Shown here in pieces: positions 15,001 to 21,000 of a DNA stretch of 64,000 bases. The stretch comes from Nannocystales bacterium (GTDB taxonomy: Bacteria > Myxococcota_A > Polyangia > Nannocystales > Nannocystaceae), in NCBI GenBank assembly GCA_050633305.1, contig JBOEGF010000018.1:576001-640000 (forward strand). The letters are read 5' to 3'. Numbering within the stretch: the stretch's first letter is position 1; each line of letters begins with the position of its first letter. A program made the position numbers.

Positions 15001-18000
15001 GGAATGTGCGTGGGCCGACTCCACTGCGTCTGACCGCACTTGGCCACGATGGTCTCGGCGAAGCGGAGATCGTGTGCGCGGTGAAACAACGGGTGTGGGC
15101 TCGCCTCGCCCTGCAGGACGAGCGCAGAACGGTCTGGTCGAAACAGGGTGAGCGTGTGAAGGGCGTCCCCGTTCCACCGGGCGGCCCAGACCTCGTGCCC
15201 ATGCCGGTCCACGGCTCGTCGCACGCGACCGCCGGCGGAGTGAATCACCGTGCCGTGAAGGAGCGAGGTCTCCATGCGCGCCGAACCCTACTGCACCCGG
15301 CGGCCTCGGGCGAACCAACCTCCCGCCTGAGGCTCAGGACACAAAAAAACGAGCGGGGAACCCGGGGGCTCCACCGCTCGCTCTTGCGAAGAGGGGTCTC
15401 AACCGTCGCAGGCGGGGCACATGCCAGCTTGGCAGCCCGAGAGCGCGAGCACGGCAGGGGGAAGCCCGACGACGTCGCACTCCGTCTGACACGCGGGGAG
15501 CGCTTTGGTGCCCATGTCCATGACGTCAAGGCAGTCGAGGATGCAGTTGCAGTCCTCGTCGTCGCGGCAGGCCTGCAGCTCATCGCAGCAGGTGGTCTTG
15601 AGGCACGTCGAGCACTCGTCGTCGTCCTTGGCGGCTTCGCATGCTGCGTTGTCGCCACCGCCGGTGGTGTCGGCACCGCCGGTGGAGGTGTCGGCGCCGG
15701 TGGTCGCGCTGTCGGTCGCGGTCTCAGTTGCGGTCTCGGACGCGCTTTCGGATGCGGACTCGCTCGCGCTCTCGGACTCGGACGCGGTTGCGCTGGCGGT
15801 CTCGGACTCCGACGCGCTGGCGGTCTCAGTGTCGCTGGCGGTCGCGGTTTCGGTTCCGGCGCCGGTCGAGGATGCCGTGGCGGTGGCACCGGTATCGCCG
15901 TCGCCGCCGTCGTCACCGCAGGCGGCGAGAGGAAGGGCGAGAGCGAGACCGAGGAAGAGGCAGACGTTACGGGTCATGTCGAGTTTCCAATTGAAAGGGA
16001 GCCGGGAAAGACCGACTCCGCGACGTCTTCTATCGAACGCCCCTCGCGTTGCCAAGGTCCGGGCGGATCGCCGGGCTCGTGCCGGTGGCTATCCTAGGTT
16101 TGTGAGTCTGCAAAGCAGAATGAGCTGAGACGACCGTGGTGTGCGGAGACATTTCGGCGGGCTCCGGTCGTACGGCCCGACCCCCACGCCCGTGCAGATC
16201 GGGTTGAGCCCGACCCGAACCAGCCGCCTACGGCCCGCCGACGGAGGCGAGGTAGGCCAGCGGAATCGCGATGCCAGCGAGGACCAACACCGCGCCCCGG
16301 CCCCGCAGCCCCTTGCGACCGGGAATCATGAACATGCCCGAGACCGCCAGCAGCAGCAGAGCGCCCGCGTATCCGTCGGCGAAGTAGGTCCACGCCTTCT
16401 TGCCGCGGTTGAGGTGGAGCCAGTTGGCCGCTCTGAGGGCGAAGCGCTCCTGCTGGCCCTCCTCGTAGACCTTGCCCGTCCTTGTGGCGACAAACAGGGT
16501 GCTCTTCTCCAACGTGATCTCCAGCTCGCCCTCGGCCGGGCTGTAGACGTCCAATGGGACTTCGTCGATCCCCACCGAGTACATGACGACCGCGGCCGCT
16601 TCCTGTTCGTCCTCCGGGAGTGGAGCCTCGACGACGAACTCACGCTCGAAGTTGGTGAAGTTGGGATCCCAGTCCGCGATGTGGTTCACCGCGAGGCCGC
16701 TCAGAGCGTAAACAAAGGTGAGGCCGACCGCGAGGTAGCCGAAGTCGCGGTGCAACGCCCGAAGCCAGGGGCGCCACTTGAACTTCTTCTTTCGGTCGGT
16801 CTTGCCCGGTGAGGGAGGCGCCTCTTCAGGCATACCGCTCTTCTTTCCACGGGTCGGCGTGGTTGTTGTAGCCGCGGGTCTCCCAGTAGCCCGGTTGGTC
16901 TCGCCGGGTGAACCGGATACCGGTGAGCCACTTGGAGCTCTTCCAGAAGTAGAGATCGGGGACGAGCGCGCGGACCGGGGCTCCGTGGGGGCGACGCAGC
17001 GGGCGACCGTCGTGCTCCCAGGCGACCATCACGTTGTCGGCGAGCCCCTCGTCGAGCCGGACGTTGGCGGTGTAGCCGTGGGCGGACTCGAAGATGACGT
17101 GCCGGGCGGAGTCTTTGAGGCCCGCCTTTTCGGCGAGGTCCTTGACCCGTACGCCTTTCCAGCGCGCGTCGAGCATCGTCCAGCCGGTCACGCAGTGAAC
17201 GTCGGCGTTGGTTTCGACGGCGTCCATGCCGAGGAGCTGGCGAAAGTCCACCTCGAACGGACGCTCGACCTCGCCGTGGATCTTGATCTTGACGTTGCTG
17301 CGCGCCGGATCGCCGGGTTGGCCACCCATCGGTTTGAGGGCTGAGATGACACGCTGACCCGGCGGTACGCGAGCGCGGCCATCGGCCCTGGACTGTGCTT
17401 TCGCCTCGCTGGTGAGGTGGTCGCTGATCGTGTACAGGCCACCACCCATAGCGGCGATCACGGTGCCGGAGGCAGCCTTGCGGATGAAGTCGCGGCGGGC
17501 GATCGTTTTGGCGAGGGACGGAGCTGGGTCGGTCATGGTCGTCGTCCTTGGGCAAGGGTGCGGCACTGGGGAGACGGGTGCCATCGAGATGGTGTTACGG
17601 GCGCCGAGGTGGCGTTTTGCGGCGCACTTCGAGTATCCCTGAGGACGCGTCGCGGTTACCCATGCGAATTCTGTACGTCGAGCCGTTCGAGAGTGGATCA
17701 CATGCGGCGTTCTCGCGGGTCCTCACCCGCGCGATTGACGCAAGGTGGACGTCCCTGACGCTTCCGGGTCGCCATTGGAAGTGGCGGATGCGTGGGAGTG
17801 CGGCCTACTTCGCACTGGCGCACGCCGAGGCGCTCGCGAAGCCCTACGACCTCGTGGTCGCGTCCTCGTACGTGCCGTTGGCCGAGCTGGTCGGACTCGT
17901 GCCGGCGCTACGAGACGTGCCCCGGGTGCTGTACTTCCACGAGAACCAGCTCGCGTTTCCGACGCTGGGACCTGCGGAGCCTCGTGACCACCACTTCGGG

Positions 18001-21000
18001 TTCACGCAGCTGGTCTCGGCACTGGCCGCCGACCGGTGCGTGTTCAACTCCGCGTTCAATCGGGACTCGTTCCTCGATGCGGGGGATGCGTTGCTCCGAC
18101 GGATGCCGGACGCGGTGCCCTGCGGGTGGGTTCAACGCATTCGGGACCGCTCCTGTGTCCTCGGCGTACCGCTCGAGCTGACTTCGGACCCCGTTGCGGA
18201 GGCTTCGGACGATCCGGAGGGGCCGCTGCTGCTGTGGAACCATCGCTGGGAGCACGACAAGAACCCGCAGACCTGCCTGGAGGGCCTTGCCCAAGTCGCC
18301 TCCGAGGGACGGGCGTTTCGTGTCGCCGTGTGTGGCCAGCGGTTCTCCCGCGTACCGCCCGTCTTCGCAGCGACCGAATCCGCGCTGCGCTCGCGGGCTG
18401 TGCAGTGGGGTCCAGCAGACGCGGCGGGCTATCGGGCGTTGCTCGATCGTGCCGACGTCGTGTTGTCGACCGCGCATCACGAGTTCTTCGGTGTCTCGGT
18501 GATGGAGGCAGTCCACCACGGGGCGCGCCCGCTGGTACCCGACCGCCTCGCGTACCGCGAGCTGTGGCCTGAAGAGTTCCGCTACGAGGATGACGCGGCG
18601 TTCGTTCCCACACTGCGCGCGCTGCTGGACTCTGGGGCTCCGTTGCGGGCGGACCGTCGTGACCTCACGAAGCCATTCTCGGCACCCAAGCTCATTCCGC
18701 GTTTCGCGGAGCTGTTCGACGAACTCGTCTCGAAAGCTTGAACGGGCCGCGATACAGTCCGCCCGATGTCCGTCGCCCGCCCGTACAACTTCTCCGCTGG
18801 CCCCGCGATTCTGCCCACGTCGGTGTTCGAAGAGACCGCGGCCGCCGTCCGGCAGCTCAACGTCCCCGGTGACGAGTCGCTCGAGTCCAAGCTCTCCATC
18901 CTCGAGATCTCGCACCGAAGCAAGACGTTCGACGCGATTCACAACGATGCCATCGCGCTCGTGCACGAGGTGCTCGGTGTGCCCGACGACTACGAGGTGC
19001 TGTTGCTTCAGGGCGGGGCGAGCCTGCAGTTCGCGATGCTTCCGATGAACCTGGGCGTCCAAGGCAAACCCGCTGCCTACGTGGACACCGGAGCCTGGTC
19101 TGCCAAGGCGATCAAGGAGAGCAAGGGCTTGGGCGACACGCTCGTCGTCGCGTCGAGCAAAGAGACGACCTACGACCACATCCCTGCGCGGGATACGTGG
19201 TCCGACTTCGCCGGGTCCAGCTACCTGCACGTCACGTCGAACAACACGATCTACGGCACCGAGTTCGCCGAACTCCCCGAGTCCGGCGATGTGCCGCTCA
19301 TCGTCGACCTCAGCAGCAACATCGGCAGCCGTCCCATGGCGCTCGAGAACGTCGCGCTGGGCTATGCGGGCGCGCAGAAGAACCTCGGCCCCTCTGGGGT
19401 CACTCTCGTCTTCGCGCGCAAGGACCTGCTGGCACGCGAGGCGCCCGGCTACGTGCCCACGATCCTTCGCTACGGGACGCACGTCGAGAAGAACAGCCTG
19501 TTCAACACGCCCAACACGTTCGGCATCCTCGTTCTGCGCAACGTGCTTCGATGGGTCAAGCGAAGCGGTGGGGTCGAGGCCGTGGGCAAGGTCAACGCCG
19601 CAAAGGCGGGCAAGCTCTACGCTGCTCTGGATGAGAGCAGCTTGTTCGGCGCTCACGCCAAGGATGGGAGTCGCTCCCAGATGAACGTGACGTGGACCCT
19701 CCAGGGCGATGAGAGCGGGGAGAAAACCAAGGCCTTCCTCGCCGCCACGGCACAAGCCGGCCTCAGTGGCCTCAAGGGACACCGATCGGTGGGGGGCTGT
19801 CGCGCCTCGATCTACAACGCGTTCCCCGAAGATGGCGTCGATGCCCTCGTCGAGTTCATGCGAGAGTTTGAGCGTACGCAAGGATGAGCGCGCAGTACCC
19901 AGTCGAGGCCCCCGGGTGGGCCGCGCTCGACCGTGTCGGGCTCACGATCTACCCAGGGCAAACCCCGCACCAGTTCGCGAGCCAGACCGGCTACGACCTC
20001 GATAGTCCCAACCCGCTCCCCGCGATCTGTGTGTGGGAGGGCTCCAATCCGGAGCATTGGCACTACGTCACCTATGGCCTGACCGAGCTGTTCGAAAAGT
20101 CATCGGACGACCCCAAGGTCTCGGGCTTCGGATTTGAGATCACGTTTCGGCTGCCTCGAGCGGCTGACGAGACCCAGCCTCCGACCTGGCCGATCCACAT
20201 GCTGCAAGGCATCGGGCACTACGCACTGTCCGGTCATGGTGGGTTCGACACCGGGCACATGATCGACCTCGGGGGTCCACTGGCCGCAGTGTCAGAGGGC
20301 GGAGAACCCTCGAAGTTGCACGGAGTGATCACCATCCCGGATCCCAGTTTCGGCAAGGTCGACACCCAGTTCGGCTCGATTCTGTTTCTGCAACTGTTCG
20401 GGATCACATCCGAAGAACTCGAGTCCATGCAGAACTGGCCGATGGAGCGGCGGGTGGGGCTGGTGCGCGAGGTCGAGCCTTTCGGGCTGACTCGCGTGGA
20501 GCGCGGCGCGTTCTCGGAGAGCCGCGAGACCGCGGCGGCTTGGCGTCGCCATGCGCTGGGTGTGTTGGTGTAGGGACATCTTTCGCTCAGCGCTTGGGTC
20601 CGCACGACTCGGTGCGCTATCGTTGCTTCGGATGCGGGTTTGGACGGACTCCTTGCGGTGCTTGGTGGCGTGTGTGCTGCCGATGACTGCGTGCGCGGGG
20701 GGTGCGGACGTCGACAGCGGCAACTGTGGGACGTTCGGTCAAGGCTGTGTCAACGACTCCGCGTCCATGACGGAAGGATCCGCCACGTCCGGCACTGCGC
20801 CGACCTCGGGCGGCAACAGCAACACCGACAGCAACTCGGGTTTCGTCACCACGGGGATGGGCTCGAGTTCGGGGACCGGCGGGGGCCCCGGCGGCAACTG
20901 CATCGACGTCGATGGCGATGGCTACGGGGAAGGCTGCGTGCCTGGGGACGACTGCGACGACGACAACGTCGACATCAACCCTGGGGTCATGGAGCAGTGT

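What a model noticed while it worked through the whole genome (the two positions that open the first line are those of the whole stretch)
17662..18741. Full-length homologue of the animal queuosine mannosyltransferase QTMAN beside a complete queuosine pathway
g05507 (359 aa) is 33.6% identical over its whole length to Drosophila tRNA-queuosine alpha-mannosyltransferase, and the genome makes queuosine de novo. I read it as a bacterial enzyme that glycosylates queuosine-34 of tRNA. New: glycosylated queuosine, known from animal tRNA-Asp and tRNA-Tyr only, would exist in bacteria.
Evidence so far: Swiss-Prot best hit QTMAN, 33.6% over 369 columns; Pfam QTMAN_N 1-168 of 168, E 2e-56. QueC g01115, QueD g03622, QueF g00140, Tgt g01336, QueA g01337, QueG g06506, precursor transporter g03441. 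PF12038 in 6871 of 189,784 bacterial genomes, 109 of 1654 Myxococcota. Search QTMAN+queuosine+bacteria: 9 papers; the one richest in QTMAN has no passage on bacterial homologues.
(Added by a program. Inside this text positions count along the whole contig: contig position 576,001 is position 1 of the stretch shown here. "Call 12" and the like, gene names such as g00115 and contig names such as C1 are that model's own, and its searches are not shown. The text may have been shortened before it was handed on; [...] marks where a part breaks off. The agent that wrote the report below was given it as the finding of a first reader that could run no searches.)

Follow-up and report, generated by a model that had tools for sequence, protein, structure and literature searches.

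The report
Bacterial relative of queuosine-tRNA mannosyltransferase
This myxobacterial gene is an intact, full-length relative of the animal enzyme that puts mannose on the tRNA base queuosine, and it is found only in bacteria that make queuosine-tRNA, so it probably sugar-coats bacterial tRNA, which has never been reported.

Summary
Window 17662-18741 (+) encodes a 359-aa GT-B glycosyltransferase that matches Pfam QTMAN_N end to end (E 4.8e-56) and is 35-39% identical to named animal GTDC1/QTMAN proteins, in both the acceptor and the donor domain.

The genome has tgt, queA, queG, queC, queD and queF, a weak QueE, and also GluQRS.

New evidence here:
- tgt or queA was found in 87 of 88 genomes that carry the family.
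- In Actinomycetota, where tgt is patchy, all carriers have tgt: 8/8 against 109/200 across the phylum, and 22/22 against 117/150 within one order.
- One actinobacterial lineage has the gene translationally coupled to thiI, a tRNA s4U synthase.
- One viral contig places a glycosyltransferase with the family's C-domain motif between 7-deazaguanine synthesis genes and a DpdA-like transglycosylase.
- None of 80 candidate operon partners is a sugar-pathway gene.

Against: this genome has no tRNA-related neighbour (serC lies downstream, at genus level only), kin are not independent in the counts, GluQRS co-occurs rather than excludes, and no biochemistry exists.

Verdict: probably a bacterial queuosine-34 glycosyltransferase (about 0.55); sugar and tRNA species unknown. 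The scan has flagged this family before in at least four other bacterial genomes. It is a new member of a known family.

The parts
17662..18741 (+). Gene for a 359-aa QTMAN/GTDC1-family GT-B glycosyltransferase (P0001)
   Evidence: The frame is open. Pfam QTMAN_N E 4.8e-56. AlphaFold2 model has pLDDT 96.9 and pTM 0.93. Foldseek finds a retaining GT4/GT5 GT-B fold.
17665..18174 (+). N-terminal (acceptor-side) domain, residues 2-171 = QTMAN_N
   Evidence: Invariant or near-invariant residues S13, H14, W41, R42, Y91, H93, E94, N95, Q96, P100, N129 and S130 are shared with animal proteins. Identity to animal proteins is 38.6-42.5%.
18241..18261 (+). Family hallmark motif HRWEHDK (residues 194-200); K200 is the only invariant lysine
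   Evidence: The motif is present in all animal and bacterial members aligned. Human K296 is reported as needed for manQ formation (preprint 10.64898/2026.06.28.735034, passage seen). Its equivalence to K200 is inferred, not mapped.
18217..18591 (+). C-terminal (nucleotide-sugar side) Rossmann domain, residues 186-310, with E274-x7-E282
   Evidence: Weak Glycos_transf_1 match. G277 and E282 are invariant. Identity to animal proteins is 38.4-43.2%.
18766..19887 (+). serC (phosphoserine aminotransferase), 25 bp downstream on the same strand; context only
   Evidence: NCBIfam NF003764, 433 bits. No terminator-like site between the two genes. The adjacency is kept in 4 of 4 same-genus loci and in none of 5 loci of other genera.
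19884..20573 (+). SUFU-like protein gene overlapping the serC stop by 4 nt; context only
   Evidence: Pfam PF05076, E 2.3e-28.
16826..17701 (-). Divergent upstream ORF, molybdopterin oxidoreductase (MsrP/sulfite-oxidase-like); true start uncertain; context only
   Evidence: Pfam Oxidored_molyb E 9.9e-40. NCBIfam MsrP and SorA models match below cut-off. Conserved upstream in same-genus loci.

Best explanation
The gene encodes a soluble, retaining GT-B glycosyltransferase that belongs to the same family as animal QTMAN (GTDC1).

Most likely mechanism: the C-domain binds a nucleotide sugar. GDP-mannose is the first guess, by analogy. The family-specific N-domain binds the anticodon loop of a queuosine-bearing tRNA. 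The sugar is transferred, with retention of configuration, onto a hydroxyl of the cyclopentenediol ring of Q34, giving a glycosyl-queuosine in bacterial tRNA.

Shown here: family membership, the fold, conservation of both domains and of the HRWExDK lysine, presence of the Q pathway, and strict co-occurrence of the family with tgt/queA.

Inferred: that the acceptor is Q34 of tRNA, which tRNA (Asp, Tyr, His or Asn), which hydroxyl, and which sugar.
For: **Homology**
- QTMAN_N matches full length, E 4.8e-56.
- Named animal GTDC1/QTMAN proteins are among the best 150 of 2764 representatives and are 35-39% identical.
- N-domain identity to animals is 38.6-42.5%, about the same as to bacteria of other phyla (39.9-43.8%).
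- In a tree of 87 sequences the animal sequences form one clade (support 100) among the bacterial clades, without long branches.

**Fold**
- The model has pLDDT 96.9.
- The nearest solved folds are retaining GT4/GT5 enzymes: MshA, BshA, glycogen synthases, PglA. This fits an alpha-transferase.

**Substrate present**
- tgt, queA, queG, queC, queF and queD are in the same genome.

**Phyletic pattern**
- Of 80 carrier genomes from many phyla, 75 have a tgt match.
- Of 80 tested for queA, 76 have a match. Only 1 of 88 carriers (MAG G028) shows neither, and it does have GluQRS.
- Actinomycetota sample: tgt in 109/200, carriers 8/200, all 8 tgt+ (hypergeometric P 0.007).
- One actinobacterial order: tgt in 117/150, carriers 22/150, all 22 tgt+ (P 0.003).
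- Control family in the same order: SUFU-like was found in 5/151 genomes, of which 4 are tgt+, which is the background rate.

**Gene context elsewhere**
- In one actinobacterial clade, a THUMP-ThiI tRNA sulfurtransferase gene lies directly upstream. It overlaps or abuts the gene in 6 loci and lies within 1 kb in 2 more, out of 10 loci.
- Viral contig L097 has a 359-aa glycosyltransferase with the NHRWEFDKNP motif (hhalign probability 98.9 over the C-domain). It sits between FolE, Gat-QueC and a DpdA-like transglycosylase.
- None of 80 candidate operon partners, from 45 of the 80 loci, is a glycosyltransferase or a sugar-nucleotide enzyme.
Against: - There is no biochemical or mass-spectrometric evidence for glycosylated queuosine in any bacterium. 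The papers seen describe sugar-modified Q as a vertebrate or animal feature (PMC10690763, passage).
- The window has no tRNA-related neighbour. The gene sits between an MsrP-like gene and serC, and that arrangement is kept only within the genus.
- Q-pathway genes lie within 8 kb in only 2 of 80 loci (L057 queA-tgt, L078 queG-like). That is about what chance predicts.
- The thiI link is one lineage, so one evolutionary event. It is absent from 8 of 8 randomly sampled actinobacterial carriers.
- The co-occurrence counts treat related genomes as independent, so the P values overstate. In Planctomycetota the test is empty (tgt in 197/201).
- GluQRS esterifies the same allylic hydroxyl of Q on tRNA-Asp that animal QTMAN mannosylates (passages). 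It is present in this genome and in at least 20 of 80 carriers. A simple 'same site, same tRNA' model therefore implies competition.
- The structural neighbours include enzymes with small-molecule acceptors, such as MshA, BshA, SenB and tetrahydrobiopterin glucosyltransferase.
- The viral glycosyltransferase shares only the C-domain, not QTMAN_N.
Confidence: 0.55

Rival explanations
1. It is a QTMAN-family glycosyltransferase whose bacterial acceptor is something other than queuosine: a small metabolite, a protein or a lipid. The animal enzyme would then have been recruited to tRNA later.
For: At 35-39% identity, glycosyltransferases often differ in acceptor. The nearest solved folds include small-molecule glycosyltransferases MshA, BshA, SenB and BH4 glucosyltransferase. 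There is no universal tRNA-related neighbour. The protein is mildly acidic (pI 6.3, net charge -4). Neighbours such as serC, adenosine deaminase, HAD-IIA phosphatase and alpha/beta hydrolase occur in some lineages.
Against: The acceptor-side N-domain is as conserved as the donor side between bacteria and animals. All 30 carriers sampled where tgt is patchy have tgt. No partner from a metabolite, polysaccharide or lipid pathway recurs across phyla. A conserved basic loop, R37-x-W-K40-W41-R42, is shared with animals.
Confidence: 0.25
2. It acts on a 7-deazaguanine compound other than Q34 in mature tRNA. Candidates are free queuosine or queuine during turnover or salvage, a tRNA-bound precursor (preQ1 or epoxy-Q), or a deazaguanine in DNA.
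For: The co-occurrence with tgt/queA would also be expected for these acceptors. A glycosyltransferase with the family's C-domain motif lies in a viral DNA-deazaguanine cluster. GluQRS already occupies Q on tRNA-Asp in this genome.
Against: The full QTMAN_N domain is shared with the tRNA-acting animal enzymes, whereas the viral protein lacks it. The thiI coupling points to tRNA. preQ1 has no hydroxyl to glycosylate (established chemistry). A dpd cluster in this genome was not looked for.
Confidence: 0.15
3. The gene is a decaying or functionless remnant.
For: The distribution is patchy within the family (14 of 23 other genomes of the same family).
Against: The frame is intact, all invariant residues are present, the model is very confident, and same-genus orthologues are 71-84% identical with conserved synteny.
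Confidence: 0.03

Closest known systems
Animal QTMAN (GTDC1), tRNA-queuosine alpha-mannosyltransferase (Zhao et al. 2023, Cell; not readable here, known through citing papers)
   Same: Same Pfam N-domain at full length, same GT-B architecture, and the same invariant motifs (SH, WR, YFHENQ, FNS, HRWExDKxP, HEFFG..E, PxRLxYxE). Identity is 35-39% overall and about 40% in each domain. Queuosine-tRNA is available in the host.
   Different: The bacterial protein lacks the insert of about 90-110 residues, low in sequence conservation, that lies between the two domains in animal proteins. The host makes Q de novo instead of salvaging queuine. The host also encodes GluQRS. Activity, sugar and tRNA target are untested.
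GluQRS (YadB), the known bacterial enzyme that decorates the cyclopentenediol of Q34 in tRNA-Asp
   Same: It would act on the same nucleoside, and possibly on the same allylic hydroxyl (passages). It is present in the same genome.
   Different: It is an unrelated fold (a class I aminoacyl-tRNA-synthetase paralogue) that makes a labile glutamyl ester, not a glycoside. It co-occurs with the family in at least 20 of 80 carriers rather than excluding it.
Retaining GT4 GT-B enzymes with solved structures (MshA 3c48/3c4q, BshA 6n1x/5d01, PglA 8dqd, SenB 8k5u, BH4 glucosyltransferase 9v0w)
   Same: Same two-Rossmann GT-B fold: TM-score up to 0.73, Foldseek E down to 1e-12. It has an E-x7-E motif in the C-domain; the motif's name is recalled, while the residues are.
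   Different: Sequence identity is only 10-18%. No PDB chain matches by sequence. These enzymes lack the QTMAN_N signature and act on small molecules or lipid-linked sugars.
Viral glycosyltransferase in a 7-deazaguanine DNA-modification cluster (locus L097, ORF 2978-4057)
   Same: It carries the NHRWExDKNP motif and a QTMAN-type C-domain (hhalign probability 98.9, E 3e-17). It lies among FolE, Gat-QueC and a DpdA-like transglycosylase.
   Different: It has no detectable QTMAN_N domain. Its presumed acceptor is DNA rather than tRNA. It is only 24% identical over residues 140-305.

Membership tests
QTMAN / GTDC1 family (PF12038 N-domain plus GT-B C-domain) | Full-length QTMAN_N domain above Pfam's gathering score | tested here: met
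   189.6 bits against a cut-off of 25, model positions 1-168 of 168.
QTMAN / GTDC1 family (PF12038 N-domain plus GT-B C-domain) | GT-B fold with a GT4-type nucleotide-sugar domain | tested here: met
   AlphaFold2 pLDDT 96.9. Foldseek hits are all GT-B retaining transferases. The Glycos_transf_1 match is weak, 22.5 bits, below its cut-off.
QTMAN / GTDC1 family (PF12038 N-domain plus GT-B C-domain) | Hallmark motifs shared with named animal members, including the HRWExDK lysine | tested here: met
   35 invariant columns across 3 animal and 7 bacterial sequences, including H194, R195, E197, D199 and K200. Equivalence of K200 to human K296 is inferred only, as no human sequence was at hand.
QTMAN / GTDC1 family (PF12038 N-domain plus GT-B C-domain) | Host supplies queuosine-34 tRNA | tested here: met
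   tgt, queA, queG, queC, queF and queD were found. QueE is only weakly identified.
QTMAN / GTDC1 family (PF12038 N-domain plus GT-B C-domain) | Family occurs only where tRNA-guanine transglycosylase occurs | tested here: met
   87 of 88 carriers have tgt or queA. 8/8 carriers against 109/200 background, and 22/22 against 117/150, in Actinomycetota. Kin are not independent.
QTMAN / GTDC1 family (PF12038 N-domain plus GT-B C-domain) | [quoted passage not shown] | not testable with these tools
   Needs an enzyme assay or tRNA mass spectrometry. The definition is taken from a passage of preprint 10.64898/2026.06.28.735034.
Polysaccharide, LPS or glycolipid GT4 glycosyltransferases | Gene lies in a cluster with other glycosyltransferases, sugar-nucleotide enzymes or exporters | tested here: not met
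   The window neighbours are an MsrP-like gene, serC and a SUFU-like gene. 0 of 80 candidate operon partners in 45 loci carry such domains. NCBIfam EPS glycosyltransferase models score only 15 bits against cut-offs of 400-550.
Low-molecular-weight-thiol GT4 enzymes (MshA/BshA type) | Sequence-level membership, or a partner deacetylase or ligase nearby | tested here: not met
   Fold likeness only, 10-16% identity. No PDB sequence match. No such neighbour.

The most novel reading that the evidence does not exclude
Glycosylated queuosine, thought to be an animal speciality, is made by thousands of bacterial species. The QTMAN family would then be an old bacterial tRNA-modification enzyme that animals inherited or acquired. 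In bacteria that also carry GluQRS, sugar and glutamate would be alternative decorations of the same queuosine ring, perhaps on different tRNAs or under different conditions. A phage branch of the family would put sugars on 7-deazaguanine in DNA.
Probability: 0.45. Interest if true: 0.8.

Novelty: new member of a known kind. Interest (0 to 1): 0.55.

Why it matters
If the inference is right, bacteria carry a tRNA wobble hypermodification (hexosyl-queuosine) that no modification catalogue lists for them. The enzyme for it would already be identifiable in about 900 sequence clusters (E <= 1e-30), spread over many phyla.

The idea is directly testable in cultured, harmless marine strains by nucleoside LC-MS and a single knockout.

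It would also bear on three further questions:
- how queuosine decoration tunes decoding of NAU/NAC codons;
- why GluQRS exists alongside this enzyme;
- where the animal enzyme came from.

If it is wrong, the family offers a clean case of a glycosyltransferase that changed its acceptor while keeping its acceptor domain.

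Tried and rejected
- **Domain fusions as a clue to function.** The long family members (432-970 aa) carry only an insert between the N- and C-domains, and the four that carry a source name are animal proteins. They are not fusions. The long open frames of 699 and 819 aa reported for two actinobacterial loci are artefacts of reading across stop-free high-GC DNA. ThiI and the glycosyltransferase are in different frames.
- **Solved relatives.** None were found by sequence.
- **Phage records.** tblastn with P0001 found nothing at 1e-5. With P0153 it found only weak C-domain matches in Xanthomonas, Erwinia and Pseudomonas jumbo phages. The Xanthomonas gene lies beside GlmS-like and BshB-like genes and has no QTMAN_N, so it was judged irrelevant.
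- **Mutual exclusion with GluQRS**, as a test of 'same hydroxyl on tRNA-Asp'. Rejected: both are present in this genome and in at least 20 of 80 carriers.
- **Enrichment of Q genes near the gene.** Found in 2 of 80 loci, about chance.
- **serC as a functional partner.** The adjacency holds only within the genus.
- **Planctomycetota co-occurrence test.** Uninformative, because tgt is nearly universal there.
- **thiI linkage as a general rule.** It is absent from 8 of 8 randomly sampled actinobacterial carriers.
- **Promoter and terminator scan.** Nothing useful.

Full report
**Observation.** Window 17662-18741 (+) is an open frame of 359 codons in DNA of about 67% G+C.
- It matches Pfam QTMAN_N (PF12038) over the whole model: residues 2-171, positions 1-168 of 168, E 4.8e-56, 189.6 bits against a cut-off of 25. 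It also has a sub-threshold Glycos_transf_1 match at 186-289.
- The assembly (11.0 Mb, 90 contigs, 92% complete) has this one copy only.
- Homologues align from residue 1, so the 359-aa start is right. The 317-aa version in the protein collection (P0002) would cut off conserved residues.
- Close relatives are named 'DUF3524 domain-containing protein' from Nannocystaceae and Myxococcota MAGs.

**Likeness to the animal enzyme.**
- A search of 1.84 billion cluster representatives found 2764 relatives at E <= 1e-3 and 908 at E <= 1e-30.
- Some of the best 150 are longer proteins matched in two stretches. They have only an insert between the two domains. Exact look-up names four of them as animal proteins: Elysia chlorotica (UniRef: tRNA-queuosine alpha-mannosyltransferase), Anneissia japonica GTDC1, Batillaria and Nucella.
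- P0001 is 35, 37 and 39% identical to three of them.
- Split by domain, identity to animals is 38.6-42.5% in the N-domain and 38.4-43.2% in the C-domain. Six bacterial homologues of other lineages give 39.9-43.8% and 39.2-51.2%.
- Shared invariant residues include S13, H14, W41, Y91, H93, E94, N95, Q96, P100, N129, W192, H194, R195, E197, D199, K200, G277 and E282.
- K200 in HRWEHDK is the family's invariant lysine (K306 in the 466-aa crinoid protein). A preprint reports that human QTMAN K296A cannot restore manQ (10.64898/2026.06.28.735034, passage). The equivalence of K200 and K296 is my inference.

**Fold.**
- With an alignment of 71 sequences (P0001 plus 70 of the 150 listed representatives; the 80 left out were fragments, partial matches or two-stretch proteins), AlphaFold2 gives pLDDT 96.9 and pTM 0.93.
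- Foldseek against the PDB returns only GT-B enzymes at 10-18% identity: MshA, BshA, an LPS glycosyltransferase, GlgM, glycogen synthases, PglA, SenB, a tetrahydrobiopterin glucosyltransferase and SdgB.
- No PDB chain matches by sequence, so no QTMAN structure was available for comparison.

**Substrate in this organism.**
- tgt and queA are adjacent on contig 6.
- queG, queC, queF and two PTPS/QueD-type genes are present on other contigs.
- For QueE there is a 238-aa radical-SAM protein whose best NCBIfam hits are five QueE models, all far below cut-off.
- The genome also encodes a 320-aa GluQRS that passes two NCBIfam equivalog models.

**Neighbours in the window.**
- Upstream and divergent lie a molybdopterin oxidoreductase (MsrP-like) and a PepSY_TM protein.
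- Downstream on the same strand lie serC (25-bp gap, no terminator-like site), a SUFU-like gene and a MopE-motif protein.
- Nothing here points to tRNA, and there is no tRNA gene in the window.
- The order MsrP-like / glycosyltransferase / serC is kept in 4 of 4 same-genus loci with enough flank. serC is absent downstream in 5 of 5 loci of other genera.
- In the wider sample of relatives the family is present in 17 of 40 genomes, including this one: 5 of 6 in the genus and 14 of 23 in the family.

**Neighbours elsewhere.** The best 80 were kept (L009-L088). They come from Myxococcota, Planctomycetota, Pseudomonadota, Actinomycetota, Thermodesulfobacteriota, Bacteroidota and others.
- All-against-all clustering of ORFs within 8 kb found no partner family common to the phyla.
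- By a simple rule (same strand, gaps under 80 bp, up to three genes each side), 45 of the 80 loci gave 80 candidate operon partners. None has a glycosyltransferase, sugar-nucleotide or export domain.
- The partners are a miscellany: serine/threonine kinase, adenosine deaminase (2), SIR2, DjlA-like with FtsY (Desulfobulbia), ArsA (Vreelandella), HAD-IIA (2), alpha/beta hydrolase (2), POT transporter (2), an RsmB/F-type methyltransferase (1), and a class I Trp/Tyr-type tRNA synthetase (1).
- The one recurrent RNA link is ThiI (ThiI_fer + THUMP + PP-loop), directly upstream. It shows a 4-nt overlap in L023 and L048, abuts or overlaps in L037, L054, L061 and L066, and lies within 1 kb in L059 and L030.
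- These loci form one tight clade of 10 in the tree (support 100, short branches), so this counts as one event. Eight randomly sampled actinobacterial carriers have no ThiI nearby (0 of 8).
- Q genes lie within 8 kb in 2 of 80 loci: queA-tgt in L057 and a queG-like gene in L078. By my rough estimate that is about the chance expectation.

**Phyletic test.** This test could have refuted the reading.
- In the 80 carrier genomes, tgt matches in 75 and is above cut-off in 73. G013 and G069 have pieces at contig ends.
- queA was searched in 72 of these plus 8 sampled Actinomycetota. Left out were G032, G035, G038, G042, G044, G050, G056 and G064, all tgt+. It matches in 76 of 80.
- Of the five genomes without tgt (all MAGs), four have queA. 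Only G028 has neither, and it has GluQRS.
- tgt is common in bacteria, so I went to Actinomycetota, where it is patchy. In 200 genomes drawn evenly from the phylum (centre G029 left out), tgt is in 109 and PF12038 in 8, and all 8 have tgt and queA. P = 0.0069.
- In 150 genomes of the order of G171 (centre left out), tgt is in 117 and PF12038 in 22, and all 22 have tgt. P = 0.0026. Without the two unpublished genomes G632 and G571, which enter only the background, P = 0.0023.
- As a control, a SUFU-like family occurs in 5 of the 151 genomes, of which 4 have tgt, which is the background rate. This control is small.
- These P values treat kin as independent and overstate the case. Taxonomy of the sampled genomes is not shown, so I could not correct for it.
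- In Planctomycetota the family is common (45 of 201) but tgt is nearly universal (197 of 201), so nothing is learned there.

**Viral context.**
- The same patterns found one viral contig (L097). Its ORF 2978-4057 (359 aa) has NHRWEFDKNP and aligns to the family profile over the C-domain only (hhalign probability 98.9, E 3e-17). Pfam finds no QTMAN_N in it.
- It overlaps an oxidoreductase gene upstream. It is preceded by FolE and a Gat-QueC fusion, and is followed 3 nt later by a protein of phrog_887 ('queuine tRNA-ribosyltransferase', E 1.6e-24), then ParB-like and terminase genes.
- This reproduces, on one contig, a lead from two earlier notes of this scan. It ties this type of catalytic domain to 7-deazaguanine in nucleic acid by an independent route, though with a different acceptor domain.

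**GluQRS.**
- Animal QTMAN puts mannose in alpha linkage on the allylic hydroxyl of Q (passage). E. coli gluQ is the alpha-allyl glutamyl ester (PMC10690763, passages).
- If the bacterial enzyme copied the animal one exactly, the two would compete on tRNA-Asp. They are not mutually exclusive: GluQRS is above cut-off in 20 of 80 carriers and present here.
- The target may therefore be another Q-tRNA or the other hydroxyl, or the two decorations may alternate. This does not bear on whether Q is the acceptor.

**Tree.** In a quick IQ-TREE of 87 sequences (P0001, 7 long or animal sequences, and 79 of the 80 locus-encoded proteins; the one shorter than 300 aa was left out):
- the animal proteins form one clade (100) among bacterial clades, joined weakly (81) to the thiI-linked actinobacterial clade and a TA06 sequence;
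- P0001 sits in a clade of 12 Myxococcota and Planctomycetota sequences (99).

The tree is unrooted, so no direction of transfer is claimed.

**Literature.**
- 'DUF3524' appears in 0 papers.
- QTMAN + bacteria: 9 papers.
- GTDC1 + queuosine: 5 papers.
- mannosyl-queuosine + 7-deazaguanine + bacteria: 13 papers.
- Six terms for glycosylated queuosine: 99 papers, of which 30 were listed.
- 7-deazaguanine + glycosyltransferase + DpdA + phage: 4 papers.
- From titles, abstract openings and the passages read, none describes bacterial homologues or glycosylated Q in bacteria. PMC10690763 states that sugar-modified Q is found in vertebrates and gluQ only in bacteria.
- Zhao et al. 2023 was not held. 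It or its supplements may discuss bacterial homologues.

**Verdict.** The gene is a genuine, intact bacterial member of the QTMAN family.
- The reading that it glycosylates Q34 of tRNA is the best supported explanation. I put it at about 0.55, because homology in the acceptor domain, strict co-occurrence with tgt where tgt is patchy, and two independent contexts agree.
- It remains unproven, and the sugar, the hydroxyl and the tRNA are open.
- The family is already catalogued and named by homology. This scan has raised the same idea on at least four other bacterial genomes. I therefore rate it a new member of a known kind, with moderate interest and a cheap decisive experiment.

Noticed in passing
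L097:170-6867 (viral contig IMGVR_UViG_3300035698_003099): A glycosyltransferase with the QTMAN C-domain motif NHRWEFDKNP sits between FolE, Gat-QueC and an oxidoreductase on one side and a DpdA-like transglycosylase (phrog_887) on the other, close to ParB-like and terminase genes. This suggests a sugar-bearing 7-deazaguanine in phage DNA.
   Followed up: partly
L023:4881-7222, L048:6721-9080, L066:6483-9185, L037:4468-6911, L054, L061: In one actinobacterial clade the THUMP-ThiI tRNA sulfurtransferase gene overlaps or abuts the start of the QTMAN-family gene (4-nt overlap in L023 and L048). The pair lies downstream of pyrD, pyrF, a mihF-like gene and gmk.
   Followed up: yes
L026 (NZ_JBLYIF010000001.1, titled Pontibacter sp. 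JAM-7): Its QTMAN-family protein groups inside Oceanospirillaceae next to Marinobacterium litorale. Its tgt, queA and GluQRS score like those of the gammaproteobacteria. The organism label or the assembly looks doubtful.
   Followed up: no
L080 / G072 (titled uncultured Anaerolineales): The sample drawn from the 'phylum of G072' contains the Planctomycetota MAGs G006 and G012, and the protein groups with Phycisphaerae. The title's taxonomy therefore disagrees with the collection's grouping.
   Followed up: no
window 17662-17787: The protein collection holds this gene as a 317-aa product (P0002) that starts 42 codons late. Homologues support the 359-aa start.
   Followed up: yes
L099, L102 (same family as the window's genome, another genus): Their copies are only 43-44% identical to P0001, whereas other genera of the family have copies at 56-61%. 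This means two subfamilies or a transfer within the family.
   Followed up: no
window 19884-21489: A bacterial SUFU-like gene overlaps the serC stop by 4 nt and is followed by a protein with a MopE-type metal-binding motif. The function of this small same-strand run is unclear.
   Followed up: no
L078:2143-2877 and 8001-9997; L088:5500-7475: In Krumholzibacteriota-type loci the gene is followed, with a 4-nt overlap, by a HAD-IIA phosphatase gene. L078 also has a queG-like gene about 5 kb upstream.
   Followed up: partly
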